From: Candidatus Sungbacteria bacterium RIFCSPLOWO2_01_FULL_47_32
GTDB taxonomy: Bacteria > Patescibacteriota > Minisyncoccia > Sungbacterales > GWA2-42-14
Assembly (NCBI GenBank): GCA_001820685.1
Contig: MHQP01000033.1
Coordinates: forward strand, 42-64,041
Direction: 5' to 3'
DNA: 64,000 bases
Position numbers and translations under genes: made by a program. How positions within the stretch are numbered: position 1 is the first letter of the stretch; each line of letters opens with the position of its first letter. A model generated the notes under the pieces. That model saw only the letters and a list, made by a program, of their open reading frames with translations, was not told the origin of the DNA and did not search any database. Below are positions 22,968 to 32,133 of the stretch, one piece after another.

Positions 22968-24167
22968 TCAATTCCGCGGTGCGCTCCCGCACGTCACAAG
23001 ACTCTGCCGAAACGACTCAAGATATTCGCTCTTTGAAGAGGCGAGAAGCGTTTTTGAAAGCTCTTTCGTGCGAAGGCGCATGAGATTGTAATTTTCAAAC
23101 TCGTAAAAAACTTTTATAAGAATATCGGCAAGATTGCGGGAATTTCCGACCGGAAAAATTCTTCCTGTCTCGTTGATGCGAATTGCTTCCCGCGCAATAC
23201 CCACATCCGCCGAAAAAACCGGAAGCCCGGAAGCGAGGGCCTCGAGAATAGTTCTTCCATACCCCTCATAGTTCGACGTAACAAGGAACATATCCGCGGT
23301 TTTGTAGTACGAAAGAAGAGTTTCGTAGGGCACCGCGTCCTCAAAAATAACCATCGGCCCGTCAAAAGGTTTTTCTTCGGTAGCATCGTCAAAGGAAACC
23401 GGCCTTTGAGGAGTTGTGCCGTAAAGATCTTTAAGCCTGTTTTTTTCAGGCCCATCGCCGACGACAAGCAGAAGAGTCCTAGGGAATTTTTTTATAACCT
23501 CGCGCATCGCAAGACACGCCATGTCGATGTTTTTTTCGGTTGTAACGCGGGACGCCATCAGAATGATGAAGTCATACGACGGATATTTGTCGTGCACTTT
23601 TGTACTTGGTACAGCGTTCCGAATTGCCTCGCCATCGACGAATATCGGAAGAACGGAAATGCGCCATTCATGGATGCGGAATTTTCCTTCAAGAGATGCT
23701 TTCAGGCGCTCGCTCACGACACGAACGCAATCGGCATGGCGCGCCGACCAGCGATACAGGCGGTAGCGCATGGAGTTTTTGAACGATTCTTTTTTGAAAT
23801 TCGGACTCAAAAAATCCGTATGTATCTGAACCTGGAGCGAAATTCCGGTAAACGCCCTTAACAAAAAACCGGCAATGTTCGTCATTGCATCCTGCGAGGT
23901 TATAACGGCGTCGTTTTTTTTATAGCCTCCCTCTTTTAGTATGCGTCTTCCGAGAGAAAAAGCTTTAAAAAAATATGAAAATTTTAATCCGGTGTTCGTC
24001 GGATATATCCGAACGTTTTGAGCAAGTTCTTCCTCGGCATACCCCGGGTGCGTGTAGACGATGACGCGAAGGTCGTCAAAAAGCGTTCCGTATTCCTTCA
24101 TGCGCTCCCGCACTTCCGACCCCTCTTCGAATATCAGAGGGTCAATGCTTAACATCAAAACTTTCAT
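22968..24167 (-). CDS. Glycosyltransferase family 4
   Basis: FLVTSNYEGYGRTILEALASGLPVFSADVGIAREAI is the E-X7-E core. Confidence 0.8.
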   Translation of the reverse strand: MKVLMLSIDPLIFEEGSEVRERMKEYGTLFDDLRVIVYTHPGYAEEELAQNVRIYPTNTGLKFSYFFKAFSLGRRILKEGGYKKNDAVITSQDAMTNIAGFLLRAFTGISLQVQIHTDFLSPNFKKESFKNSMRYRLYRWSARHADCVRVVSERLKASLEGKFRIHEWRISVLPIFVDGEAIRNAVPSTKVHDKYPSYDFIILMASRVTTEKNIDMACLAMREVIKKFPRTLLLVVGDGPEKNRLKDLYGTTPQRPVSFDDATEEKPFDGPMVIFEDAVPYETLLSYYKTADMFLVTSNYEGYGRTILEALASGLPVFSADVGIAREAIRINETGRIFPVGNSRNLADILIKVFYEFENYNLMRLRTKELSKTLLASSKSEYLESFRQSLVTCGSAPRN

Positions 24168-24180
24168 ATGAGTGTGTTCA

Positions 24181-24290
24181 CCCCGTTAGAAACTCGCTTC
24201 AAAAACTTGCCAGAGAGCGCCGAGCTATATATCAGCTTCGCAAACCTATGTTCGTTTTAGAGAACTTCGCCGGTAAGCTCCTAACGGGGA
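24181..24290. repeat. Palindromic intergenic element: CCCCGTTAG...(~90 nt)...CTAACGGGG, a member of the dispersed CCCNTTAGAAG box family
   Basis: Perfect 9-bp inverted arms at 24181-24189 and 24281-24289 in the 132-bp gap between two same-strand glycosylation genes. The CCCCGTTAGAA core is the same as the elements at 42.5, 47.2 and 49.6 kb. Confidence 0.5.
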
Positions 24291-24299
24291 TTAAAAAAA

Positions 24300-25043
24300 T
24301 TACTGCTGATGTTGTTCTCCCTCGGAAAAATGCTTGATTGCCTTGTTCCACCGCTCGAAGGTTCCGCAATCAAAAAAGAATCCCTCTCCCTTGAAACCGG
24401 TAAGAAGCCCGCGAGACGCAAGGTGCGGAAAAAGGTCGCGCTCTATCATAAGGAATTTTTCCTGCGTCGGAACATGCAGGAGTGCTTCCGGTGAAACAAC
24501 ATACAATCCGGACGATACAAATGACGTAGGAGGATCTTTTGGCTTCTCGAGAAACATTGCGATCTTTGGCCCCTTCATTACGGCAACCCCGTAGTCAGAC
24601 GGATTTTCTACGGATACAAGGGCCACAGTCGCAAGCCCTCCGTTCGTTTTATGGAATTCAAAAAGTTTTTTCAAGTCAACCCGTTTCACTTCATCGGCAT
24701 TCGTAACAAATACCGGCTCTTTGCCAATCCATTCTTTCAGGTTATGGAAAACGTAGCCGAGAGTTCCCATCGGTTCCGGCTCGATGTCAAAAGAAATTGA
24801 AATATTCCCAAGCCCCGCCTCAAAACGCTTCCGCCACCACGAAAAGTCCTCGTAGTCGGCTTCCCTGATGACTACTTTAATATCGGTAACGCCGTGCTCC
24901 CGGAAAAGCTCAATGAGATAATTCAAAATCGGCTTTTTCTTCACGCTCAAAAGAGGCTTTGGCGTTTCAAGCGTTACCGGATACAGCCGGGTTCCTTTCC
25001 CGCCTGCAATTATGATAGCTTTTTTAGGGGTTTTTGCTCCCAT
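24300..25043 (-). CDS. Sugar-phosphate nucleotidyltransferase (NDP-sugar pyrophosphorylase)
   Basis: KAIIIAGGKGTRLYPVTLETPKPLL is the NTP_transferase G-x-G-T-R motif. Confidence 0.75.
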   Translation of the reverse strand: MGAKTPKKAIIIAGGKGTRLYPVTLETPKPLLSVKKKPILNYLIELFREHGVTDIKVVIREADYEDFSWWRKRFEAGLGNISISFDIEPEPMGTLGYVFHNLKEWIGKEPVFVTNADEVKRVDLKKLFEFHKTNGGLATVALVSVENPSDYGVAVMKGPKIAMFLEKPKDPPTSFVSSGLYVVSPEALLHVPTQEKFLMIERDLFPHLASRGLLTGFKGEGFFFDCGTFERWNKAIKHFSEGEQHQQ

Positions 25044-27435
25044 GTTTCTTTGCCGAATAATTCTCAAAAAGGCCGATAAGTCCTTTCATCATGCGCTCTT
25101 TTGAGAACTCACGGGCGCGCTCTTTTCCATGCTCCCTTAGCTTTTTATATACTCCTGCGTCCGAAAAAATCAACCGCACCGCGTCCCGTATCGCCCGCGA
25201 ATCGTTGAAGGGCACAAGGATGCCGTTCTCCATGTCCGTAATGATCTCCGGGTTCCCGCCGACATCCGTCGTGATAACGGGAATTCCCGCGCTTTGCGCC
25301 TCGATTATCTGGTGCGAAAATCCTTCATAGCTCGTATTCAAAATAAAAACATCGGAAGCTTTCAGATATTTCATAATATCGGCCTTCGAACGCTTCCCGA
25401 TTATTGTTACGGCATTCTCCGCTTCCCGCTCTATGATGGCGCGCTGGAGGCGGAAGTAGTCGGGGCCGTCGCCGACGATAATAACATGCGCCCAGTTGTA
25501 TGTTTTTGTAAGGTCGGAAGCAAGATAAATGAGCGTTTCAAACCCCTTCCACAAAACGAGTCTTCCAATGGAAAGAATTATCTTTTCTTCCTCCGGGATG
25601 CCGAGCTCACGCCGTATCTCTTCTTTTGACTCGGGTATGTCAACCGGTTCAACCGCGTTAAAAATGACGGAAATATTTTCATCCGGAATACGCCACCCGG
25701 AAACGATGCGCTTCAAATACTGCGACGGAACAAGAACGCGGTCCGCGTTTCCGCACACGTGTGCCTCAACAAAGCGGAGTAGCTCGACCAAAAACCGGTA
25801 GTGGCGTATCTGGAACACGTCAATCGCGTCTTCAACGCCGAAACGCGTAACCCCCTGTTCCCACGCATAGTCTCCCGTTACTTTGACGATATATTTTTTC
25901 CTTAGGATACGCGCGGCGCACAGCGCGGGGAATCCCGCCGAAACAGGGTCCTGGGCAAAAAAGATATCGCAGTGCAGTCCCGCCGTGACACACTTCAGAA
26001 AATAAAGAAAATGACGGATGCCTTTCGGAATTTTCCGTGAAATGAAATATGTCCGGTATCGGATTTTGCGGATACCGCCGTCTTTTGCGTCGCCCCAAAG
26101 TACCTCCGCATCGCGATAGGAAATAAGGCGCACAAAGAAACGCCGCCGCTCAAGTTCTCCTGCCACAAGCCGTGAGTACGTCGCGGGGCCTCCGATATCA
26201 GGCGGAAATATGCCGGTTACGACAAGGACGCGCGGCTTTGCGCTTTTCTCAAGTTCCGCTGAAAATATTTTCAAAAGACTCTTTGAAATGGCTTCCCAGT
26301 CATAGCGCGCCGTTGCCAGTTTCTTTGCTTCGTTCACGAGGAGAGTTTTCAGAGATTCATCCGTAAAGACTTTCAGTATCTTTTGAGCGAGGTCTTCGGG
26401 ATCGTCAACGCTCGTAAAAAGACCTGTTACTCCGTCCTTTAGAAAATCGGGAATGCCGCCGACAGGAGTCCCGATAATGGGAACACCAGCCGCCATTGCC
26501 TCAATAAAAGAATTTCCGAGGCCCTCCGAGCGCGAAGGCCGCACAAAGACATTCGCTATTTTAAGATAGTCCGGCAAATGTTCGTGCGAAACGGAGCCGG
26601 CAAATATGACATCATCAAGCACTCCGAGAGCCTTGGCAAGGCTTTTTATTGCCTGTGCTTCCTGGCCGGAACCAAGCACCAAAAATTTCAGGTTAAGCTC
26701 CGGGTTTGCTTTTTTTATCAGAGCAAGAGCCGCAACGATGGTGTCAATTCCGTTCTTTAACACAAGGCGCGAAGCGGTAATAATAATCTTCTCAAAACCC
26801 CTAAGTCCGAGCCTCCGCAAAATCTCTTCGGAGCGTTCTGCCGACGTCGAACGCGCAAAGTTTTTAAGGTCTACTCCGTTCGGAACAACCTCCCCCGGCC
26901 CTTTATAGTTTAAACGATACGCAAGGTCCAAAAGATACGCCGAAATGGCAGTCACATAGTCGCATTGTTTTAAGGCATATCTGAAACCGAGGATATGAAC
27001 AAGTCCGAGACGAGATTTTCGAAGATGCTCTTCGGTATCCCCCTCCTGAAGGGTCAGAATGTATGGGACGCGCGGAAAGAAAAACTTCAACGTGCTTGCC
27101 GCGATGGAACCGTAGGACGCCATGACCACCCAGAATATCTTCTTTCGGCCTTTGAAGCGGCGCCATAAAAAAAGAACGGCAAAAAAAGCCGTGAACGGAA
27201 GGAGGAACTTATCCCATGCTTTCCCGAGCCCGAGGCGCATGATGGTAATATTTTCCTTCGTTTCTTTTTTTGGAAGTTCGGGCGCGAAACGGCTTGTCAG
27301 GACAACAAAATCAAACTCTCCGCCAAGGCGTTTTGCGTTTTCGTGAATTGCAATTTCGGCTCCCCCAATGAACGGATCGTAAGCCGTTGTGAACACGAAA
27401 ATAACCGATTTTCCTGTAGTATTTTCCAAAGCCAA
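25024..27435 (-). CDS. Tandem double glycosyltransferase (GT4-GT4 fusion, 803 aa)
   Basis: Two complete GT4 units. The first ends RPSRSEGLGNSFIEAMAAGVPIIGTPVGGIPD and the second ends NTSYEGFSHQIIEAQSAGIPVITTDVGGNPE. Each is preceded by its own GT4 N-domain (IGGAEIAIHE and DIGGPATYSRL). Confidence 0.8.
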   Translation of the reverse strand: MALENTTGKSVIFVFTTAYDPFIGGAEIAIHENAKRLGGEFDFVVLTSRFAPELPKKETKENITIMRLGLGKAWDKFLLPFTAFFAVLFLWRRFKGRKKIFWVVMASYGSIAASTLKFFFPRVPYILTLQEGDTEEHLRKSRLGLVHILGFRYALKQCDYVTAISAYLLDLAYRLNYKGPGEVVPNGVDLKNFARSTSAERSEEILRRLGLRGFEKIIITASRLVLKNGIDTIVAALALIKKANPELNLKFLVLGSGQEAQAIKSLAKALGVLDDVIFAGSVSHEHLPDYLKIANVFVRPSRSEGLGNSFIEAMAAGVPIIGTPVGGIPDFLKDGVTGLFTSVDDPEDLAQKILKVFTDESLKTLLVNEAKKLATARYDWEAISKSLLKIFSAELEKSAKPRVLVVTGIFPPDIGGPATYSRLVAGELERRRFFVRLISYRDAEVLWGDAKDGGIRKIRYRTYFISRKIPKGIRHFLYFLKCVTAGLHCDIFFAQDPVSAGFPALCAARILRKKYIVKVTGDYAWEQGVTRFGVEDAIDVFQIRHYRFLVELLRFVEAHVCGNADRVLVPSQYLKRIVSGWRIPDENISVIFNAVEPVDIPESKEEIRRELGIPEEEKIILSIGRLVLWKGFETLIYLASDLTKTYNWAHVIIVGDGPDYFRLQRAIIEREAENAVTIIGKRSKADIMKYLKASDVFILNTSYEGFSHQIIEAQSAGIPVITTDVGGNPEIITDMENGILVPFNDSRAIRDAVRLIFSDAGVYKKLREHGKERAREFSKERMMKGLIGLFENYSAKKHGSKNP

Positions 27436-27551
27436 CAGGTGAATAGTATCACAAACATAGCGCTTTTTAAAGAAGACGGAAAATATTTTGCCAGATACAT
27501 ATTAAAAAACGCCGCAGTATGCGCGGCGTCAAATCAGCTATCCTATAGCAT

Positions 27552-27588
27552 AAAAAAAAACCGCAAGGAAAGATTTGGTTTCCTGCGG
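27552..27588 (-). terminator. Rho-independent terminator directly after the stop of the P-loop-CYTH gene
   Basis: On the minus strand CCGCAGGAAACCAAATCTTTCCTTGCGG is followed by T9. Confidence 0.6.
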
Positions 27589-27590
27589 CG

Positions 27591-28749
27591 CTAGTTTCTT
27601 TTCTTCGCAAGACTTTTCATCGAATATCGCGAATCTCCGGTAACTTCCTTTATCACTTCAATAAAGGGCGGAATGAAAACACGGTCGTTTTCCTCCGTAA
27701 GCTCTATTTCGAGAACGGCAACCGGACCTCGCGACTCTGCGTACTCTCCATCCTCCTCAAGCAATCGGATAAGACGGGAATATGTCGGCTCCTCGAGCAC
27801 ATCGAGCTCGAAGTATTGGCCTTTCCACAAAAAACAGCTGCGGATTTTTTTTCACGACGTCCGAATCGGGATCTTTTTCGCTCTTAAGCAATTGTGCGTA
27901 GTCCTGAGGCCGAATCATGTGTTCATCCTCATGCTTGACACCTTTTCGAATATTCTTTTTTCGAGTTTCATAGTACGCGTAGTATCCGTCGCTTCCCCTC
28001 TTTCTGATACGATGCGAGCCTTCTTTGTCCGAACGAAGCTCTACCTGCTCAATATCAGCAGGTACAACAACAAACCCGTGAGCAAACAGAGGCATCTTCA
28101 CGATGAACTTGCGTTCTATCTCAAGAGGAATGGGGGTTCCGAGCACACTGCAAATGCCCTTAAGGAGGCGGGAAATTTTCTCGTCAAATCCGGTGCTGTT
28201 ATCGACAACCTGAACATGGTTTGCGCCAACCCAGGAATCCAGCGTCCGCCGGTCAAGGACAATTGCCTCCTCAACAGTTTCTTTCCGTGCGGAATTATTT
28301 TTTTTCGTATAGAACTCCGGAGCGCCAAGGGCCGCCGTCACAAGATGATGCACGCTTTTATACCGCAAGAGCAGTTCCATCTTTTTAAGCCCCATCTCCC
28401 TAATAAGCTTTTCAAATTTCCCCGGAGGCAGATACGCGGCATTGTCACAACATTCGCGGTCAGTAAGAACAATGCACTTCGGGTTTTTAAAGCGCCTTGC
28501 CATTTCAAGATAGCGATTTTCACGCTCAAGCTGCATTAAGAGCGCCTGCCTTTGAAAATCCTTGAGTGAGAGACCTGTCCCGCCGATGGAAACTCCATTC
28601 GTGAAAAGTTCCGTTGCAACTTCTGGAGGTGTCAGAACCGAGTATCCGAAGTCGCTCAAACGCTCAACAATTTTTGCCCTGCCGGTTGATTTGCCCCCGC
28701 ACGGGCCGCCAGTCAATGCATGGAGCGTAACTTCTTTCGCGTCCGCCAT
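27591..28749 (-). pseudogene. P-loop NTPase (AAA_28/NadR-like) fused to a CYTH domain, broken by a 1-nt frameshift between 27832 and 27853
   Basis: ORF 27757..28749 has the Walker A motif GGPCGGKST and the CYTH signature EIERKF. The CYTH fold continues in another frame as ORF 27591..27830 (WKGQYFELDVLEEP...LEIELTEEN). Removing one base from either the A8 or the T6 homopolymer on the minus strand joins the two frames. Confidence 0.5.
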
Positions 28750-31054: not shown

Positions 31055-31236
31055 ATCCCCTCCGCGTATCGAATAGGTGTTGGAAAAGACCGAACGGCTC
31101 CAGTATAACCGTTTTGCGGAAAAAATCCAGTGAAACAAAAACTAAGCTATACTACTCAAGCCAGCGCCTCCTTGCCCCAGTGGCGAGGCATGGTATAGTG
31201 ATAAAAAGATTTTTGAGAATTGAGAACCGGCCGCCA

Positions 31237-32133
31237 ATGCGCCAATCGGGAAAAAGACCCGGCATTTTGAAGCGTATCGCCCGAAGAGAGTTCCTAATAA
31301 GCGTCCAGCTGGACCCGCCGTCCCCGGGCATGTTCCCGAAATTTAATGATTCGCTGAAAAAACTCCGGAGGGCAGGCGTGAAAGTATTCGACGTAAACTC
31401 ATCGCGAAGAATATGCCATGACTCCATACAGCTTGCTTCGGAACTTTGCGGAACCTCCGCCGACGTTATCGCGCACATTACGACGCGCGACAGCTCCGTA
31501 AACGGCCTTTTAAACCAGATACTTGCCGCGTACGAATGGAGCGACCTTAAGAATTTTCTTGTTATCACGGGAGACCCGTACGAATCCAAACAGGCGGTAT
31601 TCCCGTCGCGCGGCGTTTTCCAAACAGATTCCATCGGAGCGCTAAAAGCTATCGACTGGCAATTCCGAAAGAACCTTGCCCGCCCCTTAAACATTGTCCT
31701 TGCGGCAGCCGTCAACCAGAACGAACATGACAGGGCAAAAGAAGGAAAGCGCATTGAAGAAAAGATCGCGGCAGGAACGGATATTTTCATGAGCCAGCCT
31801 GTGTTTGATAGCGTCCAGGCCGATGAACTTTTTAAATTTTATGGAGAGCATTCGGCGCGCCCTCTTTTCGTCGGAGTATGGCCAACGCTGAATCTCAAAA
31901 CCATTGAGAACATCAGAGCCGGCTCCGTTGAAGGAGTCCGGCTTCCGAGAAAAGAGTATTCGGAACTTATTTCAAGTTTTACCGACGAAAACGAGTTGCG
32001 TCGCAAGAGCGCTGAACGAACGATCGGACTTGTCAGGCACATCCGAAGTTCAGGAAAAGCAACCGGCATCTATATTGTGGCACCCTCGCGAAATCCCCTC
32101 TTGCTCCTTCCGATCCTAAAAGAACTTCTCTAG
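31237..32133 (+). CDS. Methylenetetrahydrofolate reductase family protein (MetF-like)
   Basis: ISVQLDPPSPG, HITTRDSS, LVITGDPYE and AAAVNQNEH parallel the MTHFR motifs (VSxEFFPPK, ITCRD, LALRGDPP). The probable start is MRQSGK at 31237. Confidence 0.65.
   Translation: MRQSGKRPGILKRIARREFLISVQLDPPSPGMFPKFNDSLKKLRRAGVKVFDVNSSRRICHDSIQLASELCGTSADVIAHITTRDSSVNGLLNQILAAYEWSDLKNFLVITGDPYESKQAVFPSRGVFQTDSIGALKAIDWQFRKNLARPLNIVLAAAVNQNEHDRAKEGKRIEEKIAAGTDIFMSQPVFDSVQADELFKFYGEHSARPLFVGVWPTLNLKTIENIRAGSVEGVRLPRKEYSELISSFTDENELRRKSAERTIGLVRHIRSSGKATGIYIVAPSRNPLLLLPILKELL

What the first reader, a model, noticed from the sequence alone, without database searches (positions are those of the whole stretch)
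27591..28749. P-loop NTPase-CYTH fusion gene interrupted at adjacent homopolymers
The N-terminal domain has Walker A GGPCGGKST (AAA_28/NadR-like) and is followed by a CYTH domain (EIERKF...). The CYTH fold continues in another frame (WKGQYFELDVLEEP...LEIELTEEN). Deleting one base in either the A8 tract (plus-strand T8 at 27846-27853) or the T6 tract (plus 27832-27837) restores one ~385-aa ORF. CYTH domains hydrolyse triphosphates or cyclise nucleotides, so the combination with a P-loop NTPase is unusual. The break may be a sequencing homopolymer error, a phase-variable tract, or a real pseudogene.
Basis: seen in the sequence. Interest (0 to 1): 0.55.

Follow-up and report, generated by a model that had tools for sequence, protein, structure and literature searches.

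The report
Frameshifted kinase-CYTH gene, likely pseudogene
A gene for a common but uncharacterised two-domain enzyme (P-loop kinase-like domain plus triphosphate-tunnel CYTH domain) in a groundwater Sungbacteria genome carries one extra A in a run of A's. The break is real and shared by the whole population, so this is most likely an ordinary young pseudogene and not a sequencing error or a designed switch.

Summary
On the minus strand, 28749->27591 encodes an AAA_28 P-loop domain followed by a CYTH/TTM domain, split between frame 0 (330 aa) and frame +1 (86 codons).

- **Site of the break.** It lies in the A8 run (plus 27845-27852), not the T6 run. Only A8->A7 restores the family-invariant K-x-R-x-C-F motif.
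- **Not an assembly error.** All 9 further loci examined, from NCBI, JGI, Logan and ENA assemblies, carry A8. So do at least three DNA haplotypes. No intact 385-aa allele exists in a 15-billion-protein collection. Fourteen other A/T8 runs in the window's coding regions are in frame.
- **Orthologues are intact.** This includes a syntenic Sungbacteria orthologue and 80 of 80 loci from other species. The shift is therefore lineage-specific, not a conserved recoding site.
- **Slippage rescue is unfavourable.** It would need a 1-nt deletion or a 2-nt insertion on a run of only 8, with no stimulatory RNA structure nearby.
- **The architecture is not unusual.** There are at least 2,835 clusters at 50% identity, and it matches Drosophila TTD14.
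- **A second broken gene.** A response-regulator gene in the window is also broken at an A8 run, and has a further lesion elsewhere.

Verdict: a young, population-fixed pseudogene. Low interest.

The parts
27591..28749 (-). Whole ancestral coding region: 385 codons, plus stop, plus one extra A. ATG at 28747-28749, TAG at 27591-27593.
   Evidence: The repaired protein aligns end to end with 360-390-aa homologues.
27757..28749 (-). Frame-0 ORF of 330 aa. It holds the AAA_28 domain, the first five and a bit CYTH strands, and 29 nonsense residues before the stop.
   Evidence: It is identical to the deposited proteins KKU51959.1, OGZ94639.1, OGZ99512.1 and OHA04831.1.
27591..27851 (-). Frame +1 continuation (86 codons plus stop). 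It encodes the rest of the CYTH tunnel: R303, C305, F306, Y312-F313-E314-x-D316, E347-x-E349, T370 and the C-terminal helix.
   Evidence: 62% identity to P0002 residues 300-384, E 2e-35, ungapped. Conserved columns.
27845..27852 (-). A8 run on the gene strand (GTG AAA AAA AAT). This is the site of the lesion. The ancestral form was A7 (GTG AAA AAA ATC CGC = V K K I R).
   Evidence: A8 is present in all 9 other loci examined, from independent assemblies.
27829..27834 (-). T6 run on the gene strand (TGT TTT TTG = C F L in the +1 frame). It is not the lesion.
   Evidence: A repair here gives VVKKNPQ.FLW, which loses the invariant R303 and the near-invariant C305.
28180..28719 (-). AAA_28 (NadR/Ttd14-type) P-loop domain, residues 11-190.
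   Evidence: Pfam PF13521, E 8.8e-15. Foldseek matches to thymidylate and deoxynucleoside kinases, TM-score on target 0.6-0.72.
28687..28710 (-). Walker A motif GGPCGGKS (residues 14-21). P16 is invariant in the family.
   Evidence: The same GxPxxGK[ST] motif is described for TTD14.
28453..28461 (-). D97-R98-E99, which is DRG in the rest of the family (Walker B / DRx motif). The G99E change is caused by the SNP at 28454.
   Evidence: G in 40 of 41 family members. L001 and L002 keep GGA.
28108..28122 (-). EIERK, the ExExK signature at the start of the CYTH domain (E210, E212, K214).
   Evidence: It aligns with EIERKF of NeuTTM.
28298..28305 (-). A second A8 run in the same gene, in frame (ACG AAA AAA AAT AAT = T K K N N).
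27552..27589 (-). Terminator-like hairpin followed by U9, starting 2 nt after the +1-frame stop codon.
   Evidence: RNA fold of 27500-27600, z -3.06.
27508..27530 (-). Second terminator-like hairpin followed by a U run.

Best explanation
This is a genuine 1-nt insertion (A7 -> A8, a replication-slippage type of mutation). It is fixed in this Candidatus Sungbacteria (Patescibacteria) groundwater population.

**The gene.** It encodes a TTD14-like two-domain protein. The N-terminal part is an AAA_28 P-loop domain with a nucleoside/nucleotide-kinase fold. The C-terminal part is a CYTH triphosphate-tunnel metalloenzyme domain of the NeuTTM type.

**Effect of the insertion.**
- It shifts the frame inside tunnel strand 6, after K301.
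- Normal decoding gives a 330-aa product with an intact P-loop domain but only about five of the tunnel strands.
- That product lacks R303, E314, D316, E347, E349 and the C-terminal helix, so the tunnel cannot close or bind metal and triphosphate.
- The locus is therefore a young pseudogene. At most it is leaky, through rare polymerase or ribosome slips on the A run.

**Shown:** the break, its exact site, its reproducibility, intact orthologues, the folds and the motifs.

**Inferred:** loss of function, and the biochemical role of the intact family. My guess for that role is NTP binding or phosphotransfer by the P-loop domain, coupled to or regulated by metal-dependent triphosphate binding or hydrolysis in the tunnel, as in the plant TTM1 kinase-TTM module. 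I hold that guess with low confidence.
For: **Site of the lesion**
- Only A8->A7 restores the invariant K301-x-R303 plus the near-invariant C305-F306.
- The +1 frame matches P0002 from the A run onward, E 2e-35. The frame-0 tail matches nothing.

**Real, not an artefact**
- A8 and T6 are present in all 9 further loci examined. These come from three NCBI MAGs, JGI 3300002502, Logan SRR3989344 and ENA megahit assemblies.
- The truncated ORF is indexed on 24 or more contigs.
- A further haplotype, P0125, has 7 amino-acid differences and the same shifted tail.
- No 385-aa member is in the cluster.
- Fourteen other A/T8 runs in coding regions of the window are in frame.

**Lineage-specific**
- The syntenic orthologue P0003 (L083) is intact and has only A4 at the site.
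- All 80 GTDB loci returned have near-full-length matches in a single stretch (query residues about 1-12 to 375-385). The 150 best cluster representatives also match the whole profile in one stretch.

**Pseudogenes exist in this genome**
- The receiver gene at about 57900-58313 is broken at another A8 run and at a second site that is not in a long homopolymer. Three other assemblies have the identical sequence.

**Hint of relaxed constraint**
- The window allele has G99E at a glycine conserved in 40 of 41 members.

**Domain identity**
- Pfam AAA_28.
- Family profile against NeuTTM 2FBL/3TYP, E 7e-15.
- AF2 model with pLDDT 92.5 and pTM 0.86.
- Foldseek hits to 7Z67, TTM proteins and thymidylate kinases.

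**Transcription unit**
- Terminators sit just after the +1-frame stop, not after the frame-0 stop.
Against: - The downstream frame is still fully open. It keeps 9 of 9 invariant and 7 of 8 near-invariant residues.
- Across the whole protein, deviation at conserved columns is 6 of 78, against a family median of 3. This is not an outlier.
- So there is no sign of decay beyond the frameshift. That fits a very recent event, but it equally fits continued selection on a product made by slippage.
- All assemblies come from one aquifer and one sequencing chemistry.
- No reads, RNA or protein data could be examined.
- dN/dS could not be computed. There are only 1-2 SNPs among the available DNAs, and the DNA for P0125 is not on record.
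Confidence: 0.72

Rival explanations
1. Phenotypic rescue or recoding. The A8 allele is real, but useful amounts of full-length protein are made. This could happen by RNA-polymerase slippage on the A8/T8 run (A7 or A10 transcripts). It could also happen by +1 slippage of the lysine tRNA on A-AAA-AAA-AUC. Either route gives exactly the ancestral sequence VVKKIRSCF, so the cell would make both a short and a long isoform.
For: - The downstream frame is intact and all its catalytic residues are kept.
- The +1 frame opens exactly at the run, with TGA just before it.
- Precedents exist for rescue at A runs, for example tssM1 of Citrobacter rodentium with A11, and for slippage increasing with run length.
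- A/T8 runs are about 9 times more frequent in this window than the composition predicts.
Against: - The shift is not conserved in any orthologue.
- The run is only 8 long.
- The frame needs a 1-nt deletion or a 2-nt insertion. Transcription errors in A/T runs are overwhelmingly 1-nt insertions.
- There is no significant RNA structure around the site, z -0.84.
- The frame-0 A-site codon is an ordinary AAT, neither a stop nor an obviously rare codon.
- A second A8-broken gene in the window carries an additional lesion outside any long homopolymer, which argues for plain decay.
Confidence: 0.15
2. Sequencing or assembly artefact. The true genome has A7 and the gene is intact.
For: The break lies in a homopolymer, and all data come from short-read metagenomes of one site.
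Against: - A8 is found in every one of 10 sequences. These were made with different assemblers and samples and cover several haplotypes.
- No intact allele is in the protein collection.
- Fourteen other A/T8 runs in coding regions are in frame, including one in this same gene.
Confidence: 0.04
3. Phase-variable contingency locus. The A tract switches the gene on and off within the population by slipped-strand mispairing.
For: - The run sits in a coding region.
- The homologous site tends to be A-rich in the family. Run lengths reach 6-8 in 8 of 58 loci, including an in-frame A8 in L003.
Against: - No tract-length polymorphism is seen among 10 sequences, several haplotypes and different sampling campaigns.
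- A8 is short for an efficient switch.
- There is no sign of a surface or host-interaction role.
- The tract is not a conserved feature of the family.
Confidence: 0.05
4. A functional split gene. The 330-aa product and a separately translated 69-79-aa product (as annotated, KKU51958.1) assemble into a working tunnel.
For: Gene callers annotate both ORFs.
Against: - No Shine-Dalgarno-like sequence or good start precedes the small ORF. The candidates are TTG at 27830 and GTG about 27800.
- The split falls inside a beta strand.
- R303, C305 and F306 would be missing from both products.
- No family member is split in this way.
Confidence: 0.03

Closest known systems
Drosophila TTD14 (CG30118) and its invertebrate orthologues. 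This is the 'Ttd14' in the NadR/Ttd14 AAA domain name that UniRef gives to the window's ORF (PMC4624897).
   Same: - N-terminal P-loop domain followed by a CYTH-like domain.
- Walker A with proline at the third position. TTD14 has GxP75xxGKT, and its P75L mutation abolishes GTP binding. Here the motif is GGP16CGGKS, with the proline invariant.
- An hhhhDxG motif exactly 79 residues after the start of Walker A in both proteins (73 to 152 in TTD14, 14 to 93 here).
- UniRef names the window's ORF a 'NadR/Ttd14 AAA domain-containing protein'.
   Different: [quoted passage not shown]
- The window copy is frameshifted, and its allele reads DRE instead of DRG.
Arabidopsis TTM1/TTM2 tandem kinase-TTM module (PDB 7Z67; PMC9582702)
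   Same: - Same domain order: a P-loop kinase followed by a triphosphate-tunnel domain.
- Best Foldseek match of the repaired model, E 2.1e-7 over 390 columns.
- It offers a model in which the tunnel domain packs against and regulates the kinase.
   Different: - The kinase domain is of the uridine/cytidine-kinase type, not AAA_28.
- Global TM-score is only 0.26, so the domain orientation differs.
- The AtTTM1 tunnel is catalytically dead, with Glu replaced by Gln. The bacterial family keeps every acidic and basic tunnel residue.
- The plant proteins have a C-terminal membrane anchor.
NeuTTM (NE1496, PDB 2FBL/3TYP) and other stand-alone CYTH/TTM proteins (PH1012 2DC4, Pfu 1YEM, SaTTM 7NSD)
   Same: - The C-terminal domain aligns over the whole of NeuTTM, E 7e-15 for the family profile. 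The alignment includes EIERKF, R-x-R, K-x-R, FELDVF, E-x-E and the ...T.D.RY.N..LA tail.
- The fold matches TTM proteins with TM-score on target 0.5-0.55.
   Different: - Those proteins have a single domain, whereas here the tunnel is fused to a P-loop domain.
- The Sungbacteria subgroup has an extra helix inserted (residues about 320-340).
- In the window the last third of the domain is out of frame.
Indel-interrupted genes at poly(A) runs that are rescued by transcriptional slippage, such as C. rodentium tssM1 (PMC4256274) and endosymbiont genes
   Same: A coding region interrupted at an A run, with the downstream frame intact.
   Different: - Those cases use runs of about 9-11 or more and rely on insertions.
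- Here the run is A8, the required change is -1 or +2 nt, and expression was not tested.

Membership tests
AAA_28 (PF13521, NadR/Ttd14-type P-loop domain) | Match to the Pfam model above its gathering score | tested here: met
   E 8.8e-15, 55.7 bits against a cut-off of 27, residues 11-190. 41 of 41 homologues also match.
AAA_28 (PF13521, NadR/Ttd14-type P-loop domain) | Walker A GxxxxGK[ST] and Walker B hhhhD | tested here: met
   GGPCGGKS at 14-21 and IVLTD97. G14, P16, G19, K20 and D97 are invariant.
AAA_28 (PF13521, NadR/Ttd14-type P-loop domain) | Family-specific DRG motif after Walker B | tested here: not met
   The window allele reads DRE. G is found in 40 of 41 members, and the sister haplotypes L001 and L002 keep G.
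CYTH / triphosphate tunnel metalloenzyme (PF01928) | N-terminal ExExK motif plus basic (RxR, K, KxR) and acidic (ExD, ExE) tunnel residues | tested here: met
   E210-x-E212-x-K214, R247-x-R249, K264, E274, K301-x-R303, E314-x-D316 and E347-x-E349. All are present, but the last three groups only in the +1 frame.
CYTH / triphosphate tunnel metalloenzyme (PF01928) | Match to the Pfam CYTH model | tested here: not met
   No hit at E <= 1 for the repaired window protein. 20 of 41 homologues hit, best E 2.3e-8. The family profile hits NeuTTM at E 7e-15.
CYTH / triphosphate tunnel metalloenzyme (PF01928) | Closed beta-tunnel fold | tested here: met
   AF2 model of the repaired protein has pLDDT 92.5, with strands from 209 to 368 and a C-terminal helix. 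Foldseek matches 2DC4, 1YEM, 7NSD and 5A5Y at probability 1.0.
CYTH / triphosphate tunnel metalloenzyme (PF01928) | Domain encoded in one reading frame, that is, a functional gene | tested here: not met
   Frame break after K301, inside strand 299-308.
TTD14-like P-loop + CYTH architecture | P-loop domain N-terminal to the CYTH domain in one polypeptide, with GxPxxGK[ST] and hhhhDxG 79 residues apart | tested here: met
   Compared with the published description of TTD14 and the family alignment.
TTD14-like P-loop + CYTH architecture | Significant full-length sequence similarity to TTD14 itself | not tested
The only link is the NadR/Ttd14 domain name given by UniRef.
Plant TTM1/2 kinase-TTM family | Uridine/cytidine-kinase-type P-loop domain and a C-terminal membrane anchor | tested here: not met
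   Pfam assigns AAA_28, not the PRK/UCK family. The protein ends at the tunnel's C-terminal helix, so no anchor segment follows. The only resemblance is at the level of the tandem fold.
Programmed frameshift or transcriptional-slippage site | Shift site and two-frame arrangement conserved among orthologues | tested here: not met
   80 of 80 GTDB loci and the 150 best representatives match as a single stretch. The syntenic orthologue is intact with A4 at the site.
Programmed frameshift or transcriptional-slippage site | Stimulatory element (RNA structure, SD-like element, or stop/hungry codon) or a long run of at least 9 | tested here: not met
   The local fold gives z -0.84. The run is A8. The next frame-0 codon is AAT.
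Programmed frameshift or transcriptional-slippage site | Detectable frame-corrected RNA or protein | not testable with these tools
   No reads, transcriptomes or proteomes are accessible.
Phase-variable (contingency) locus | Tract-length polymorphism among closely related genomes | tested here: not met
   A8 is found in all 10 sequences, covering three DNA haplotypes. A fourth haplotype is known only from its protein, which has the same shifted tail. Minority alleles within reads are not testable here.

The most novel reading that the evidence does not exclude
The A8 run is kept as a low-efficiency recoding site, by RNA-polymerase or lysine-tRNA slippage. A Sungbacteria (CPR) cell would then make mostly a P-loop-only truncated protein and a small, tunable fraction of the full kinase-TTM enzyme. 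This would be an example of slippage-dependent expression in an ultra-small bacterium whose genome is unusually rich in A/T8 runs.
Probability: 0.08. Interest if true: 0.5.

Novelty: new member of a known kind. Interest (0 to 1): 0.17.

Why it matters
The main value is for annotation. The two deposited 'hypothetical proteins' (for example KKU51959.1 and KKU51958.1) are two pieces of one frameshifted gene and should be flagged as a pseudogene.

It also shows that this Sungbacteria population carries young pseudogenes created by single-A insertions at A7 runs. There are two in 64 kb. That bears on how streamlined CPR genomes lose genes.

A side result is that the bacterial TTD14-like AAA_28-CYTH family is very large and still lacks a biochemical function. 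It has thousands of clusters across Patescibacteria, Bacillota and Bacteroidota. Its tunnel residues are all conserved. An intact member such as P0003 would be a reasonable target for biochemistry.

Tried and rejected
1. **T6 run as the lesion.** Rejected, because a repair there loses the invariant R303 and the near-invariant C305.
2. **Gene neighbourhood to infer function.** I scanned the immediate upstream (53) and downstream (61) ORFs of family loci against Pfam. No family occurs in more than 3 of them, so there is no conserved operon partner.
3. **Defence-system membership.** No PADLOC hit. No NCBIfam hit.
4. **Selection test.** Only 1-2 SNPs separate the available DNAs in this gene, and SNPs between strains come in patches elsewhere. 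DNA for the more divergent haplotype P0125 is not on record. No dN/dS was possible.
5. **Decay test.** I counted deviations at conserved columns: 6 of 78 against a median of 3. This is within the family range and so inconclusive.
6. **Search for A7 or A9 alleles in metagenome contigs.** Two scans returned nothing, even for the invariant flank. That collection does not hold this organism, so the test was uninformative.
7. **Other candidate breaks at A/T8 runs.**
   - The apparent overlap at 57441-57556 is not a frameshift. The 222-aa ORF there is the antisense shadow of a pseudouridine-synthase gene.
   - The run at 58288-58295 is a real break in a receiver gene.
8. **Paralogue in the window.** None found.
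9. **Promoter scan.** Nothing passed the consensus filter.
10. **Literature search for 'CYTH' plus 'AAA_28'.** No paper found. The 2002 paper that defined CYTH is not in the library.
Full report
**What is there**

On the minus strand, 28749->27591 is 1159 nt long, one base more than a multiple of three.
- Frame 0 opens at ATG 28749 and runs 330 codons to a stop at 27757.
- Frame +1 is closed by a TGA that overlaps the start of an A8 run (gene strand GTCG-TGA-AAAAAAA). It is then open for 86 codons to TAG at 27591-27593.
- The true homopolymer coordinates are plus 27845-27852 (A8 on the gene strand) and 27829-27834 (T6 on the gene strand).
- Two terminator-like hairpins with U runs follow the +1-frame stop directly (27589-27552 and 27530-27508; fold z -3.06). 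The transcription unit therefore ends where the long, repaired gene would end.

**It is one gene, and the lesion is in the A run**

The sequence repaired by removing one A is 385 aa long. It finds thousands of full-length homologues of 360-390 aa, with the best intact ones at 50-53% identity over 98-99% of the query.

In a 41-sequence alignment the A8->A7 repair reads VVKKIRSCFLWKGQYFELDV.
- This reproduces the invariant K301, R303, Y312, F313, E314 and D316, and the near-invariant C305 and F306.
- Further on it reproduces E347, E349, P360 and T370.
- A repair in the T6 run would give VVKKNPQ.FLW and lose R303 and C305.

The +1-frame peptide alone matches residues 300-384 of P0002 without gaps (62% identity, E 2e-35). 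That match starts exactly at the run. The 29 frame-0 residues after the run match nothing.

The ancestral sequence was therefore GTG AAA AAA ATC CGC, and the gene has gained one A.

**Domains**

| Evidence | Result |
|---|---|
| Pfam AAA_28, residues 11-190 | E 8.8e-15 |
| Pfam CYTH on this protein | no hit |
| Pfam CYTH on aligned homologues | 20 of 41 hit |
| Family profile against NeuTTM (2FBL/3TYP) | E 7e-15, across the break |
| AlphaFold model of repaired protein | pLDDT 92.5, pTM 0.86 |

Foldseek against the PDB returns three kinds of match:
- the Arabidopsis TTM1 tandem kinase-TTM module (7Z67), which is the top hit;
- stand-alone TTM proteins (2DC4, 1YEM, 7NSD, 5A5Y) for the C-terminal half;
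- thymidylate and deoxynucleoside kinases for the N-terminal half.

The break falls inside tunnel strand 299-308. The 330-aa product keeps the P-loop domain and about five strands. It loses R303, E314, D316, E347, E349 and the C-terminal helix.

**Is the frameshift real?**

- The exact 330-aa ORF is deposited four times in NCBI (KKU51959.1, OGZ94639.1, OGZ99512.1, OHA04831.1). These come from Candidatus Sungbacteria or Parcubacteria MAGs. The ORF is indexed on 24 or more contigs.
- I fetched nine loci from NCBI, JGI, Logan and ENA assemblies. All have A8 and T6.
- Three DNA haplotypes share the shift: the window, L001 and L002. A fourth protein haplotype, P0125, has 7 substitutions and the same shifted tail.
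- The 90%-identity cluster contains no 385-aa member.
- The window has 19 A/T runs of 8 or more (about 2.6 expected from composition). Fourteen of them lie in frame in coding regions, including a second A8 in this same gene. The assemblies therefore do not systematically miscall such runs.

I conclude that the extra A is a real allele, fixed or at least in the majority in this population.

**Is it conserved or programmed?**

No.
- A syntenic orthologue in another Sungbacteria (P0003, 50% identity, with DUF4382 upstream and a GT4 glycosyltransferase downstream) is intact. It has only A4 at the site.
- All 80 loci returned from species-representative genomes match over nearly the full length in one stretch. 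So do the 150 best representatives.
- The site is often A-rich, and one Azambacteria gene has an in-frame A8 there. That makes it a mutational hot spot, not a designed signal.
- The RNA around the run has no unusual structure, z -0.84.
- Rescue would need a 1-nt deletion or a 2-nt insertion. Measured transcription errors in A/T runs are almost all 1-nt insertions, and they rise steeply only with longer runs (PMC5574713). The tssM1 precedent uses A11 (PMC4256274).
- A +1 slip of the lysine tRNA on A-AAA-AAA-AUC would also give the ancestral protein, but nothing in the sequence would stimulate it. This last point is my inference.

**Pseudogene or still used?**

The evidence is indirect.
- For decay:
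  - The window allele has G99E in the DRG motif, at a glycine conserved in 40 of 41 members. The sister haplotypes keep G.
  - The same 64 kb holds a second gene broken at an A8 run, a response-regulator receiver at about 57900-58313. That gene needs a further frame correction near 58005 to complete the domain, and it is identical in three other assemblies.
- Against advanced decay: the downstream frame is open and keeps 16 of 17 conserved residues. The overall deviation from conserved columns (6 of 78, median 3) is unremarkable.

The simplest reading is a very recent inactivation. I give it 0.72. Slippage-dependent expression gets 0.15, phase variation 0.05, artefact 0.04 and a working split gene 0.03.

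**What the intact family is**

The architecture is common.
- 2,835 clusters at 50% identity at E <= 1e-30, and 8,432 at E <= 1e-10.
- At least 531 confirmed stretches in GTDB species representatives. These span Patescibacteria, Clostridia, Bacilli, Bacteroidales and Saccharibacteria, plus one Nanoarchaeia bin.
- Some members add an N-terminal HTH_3 domain.
- Neighbouring genes are not conserved.
- It is not in PADLOC or NCBIfam.

The closest described protein is Drosophila TTD14.
- It has a P-loop followed by a CYTH-like domain.
- Its Walker A is GxP75xxGKT, and an hhhhDxG motif lies 79 residues later. This is the same spacing as G14...D97-R-G here.

The plant TTM1/2 module has the analogous layout with a different kinase family and a dead tunnel (PMC9582702).

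The bacterial family keeps every tunnel acid and base. I therefore expect an active metal-dependent triphosphate-binding or hydrolysing tunnel, coupled to an NTP-binding, kinase-fold domain. The substrate is unknown, and this step is inference.

**Verdict**

It is a real interrupted fusion gene, but neither the architecture nor the kind of lesion is unusual. Interest is low.

Noticed in passing
window 57900-58313 (minus strand); A8 run at plus 58288-58295: A second broken gene, a response-regulator receiver. ATG at 58313 reads MFNKFFKK, then the A8 run pushes KKILIVEDN... into the +1 frame. Removing one A gives a Pfam Response_reg match from profile position 1. A further +1 shift near 58005 is needed to reach position 110 of 111. 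An intact paralogue lies next to it (57441-57824). Both breaks use the same AAAAAAAATC context as the target gene.
   Followed up: yes
whole window: There are 18 A/T runs of exactly 8 and one of 9 in 64 kb, against about 2 and 0.6 expected from base composition. Fourteen lie in frame in coding regions, two sit at frame breaks and the rest are intergenic.
   Followed up: partly
window 28454: This SNP separates the window haplotype (GAA, E99) from L001 and L002 (GGA, G99). It falls in the family's DRG motif, where G is found in 40 of 41 members.
   Followed up: partly
window 23956-24465, 25837-25951 and 31153-31395, compared with L001 and L002: SNPs between near-identical strains are clustered in short patches (about 40 in 500 bp), with long identical stretches between them. 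This suggests recombination tracts or strain mosaics in the assemblies.
   Followed up: no
window 25024-27435 (minus strand); L088 and L089: The double GT4 glycosyltransferase downstream of the target is called at 790-803 aa in most assemblies. It is called at only 485 aa in L088 and 521 aa in L089. This may be another strain-specific break or a contig effect.
   Followed up: no
L003:446-1522 (Candidatus Azambacteria): An intact family member carries an in-frame A8 run at the homologous site (ATA AAA AAA ATC = I K K I). The position is therefore a recurrent slippage-prone spot.
   Followed up: partly
P0099, P0102, P0110, P0131 and P0212 (about 430-445 aa): These family members have an N-terminal extension of about 70 residues. 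P0099, P0102 and P0110 have an N-terminal HTH_3/XRE domain by Pfam, reminiscent of the HTH of NadR. P0131 and P0212 are inferred only from their length and the offset of their match. This hints at ligand-responsive transcription regulators within the family.
   Followed up: no
P0208 (866 aa) and P0262 (791 aa): These much longer proteins contain the full AAA_28-CYTH unit plus a second matched stretch, so larger fusions or tandem copies exist.
   Followed up: no
L008 (DATDXK010000098.1, labelled Candidatus Nanoarchaeia): A full-length family member at 39% identity sits in a bin labelled as archaeal (DPANN). This is either cross-domain transfer between ultra-small organisms or a binning error.
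   Followed up: no
window 27673-28539 (plus strand): A 288-aa ORF runs antisense to the target gene. It is a shadow ORF. All homology evidence lies on the minus strand.
   Followed up: partly
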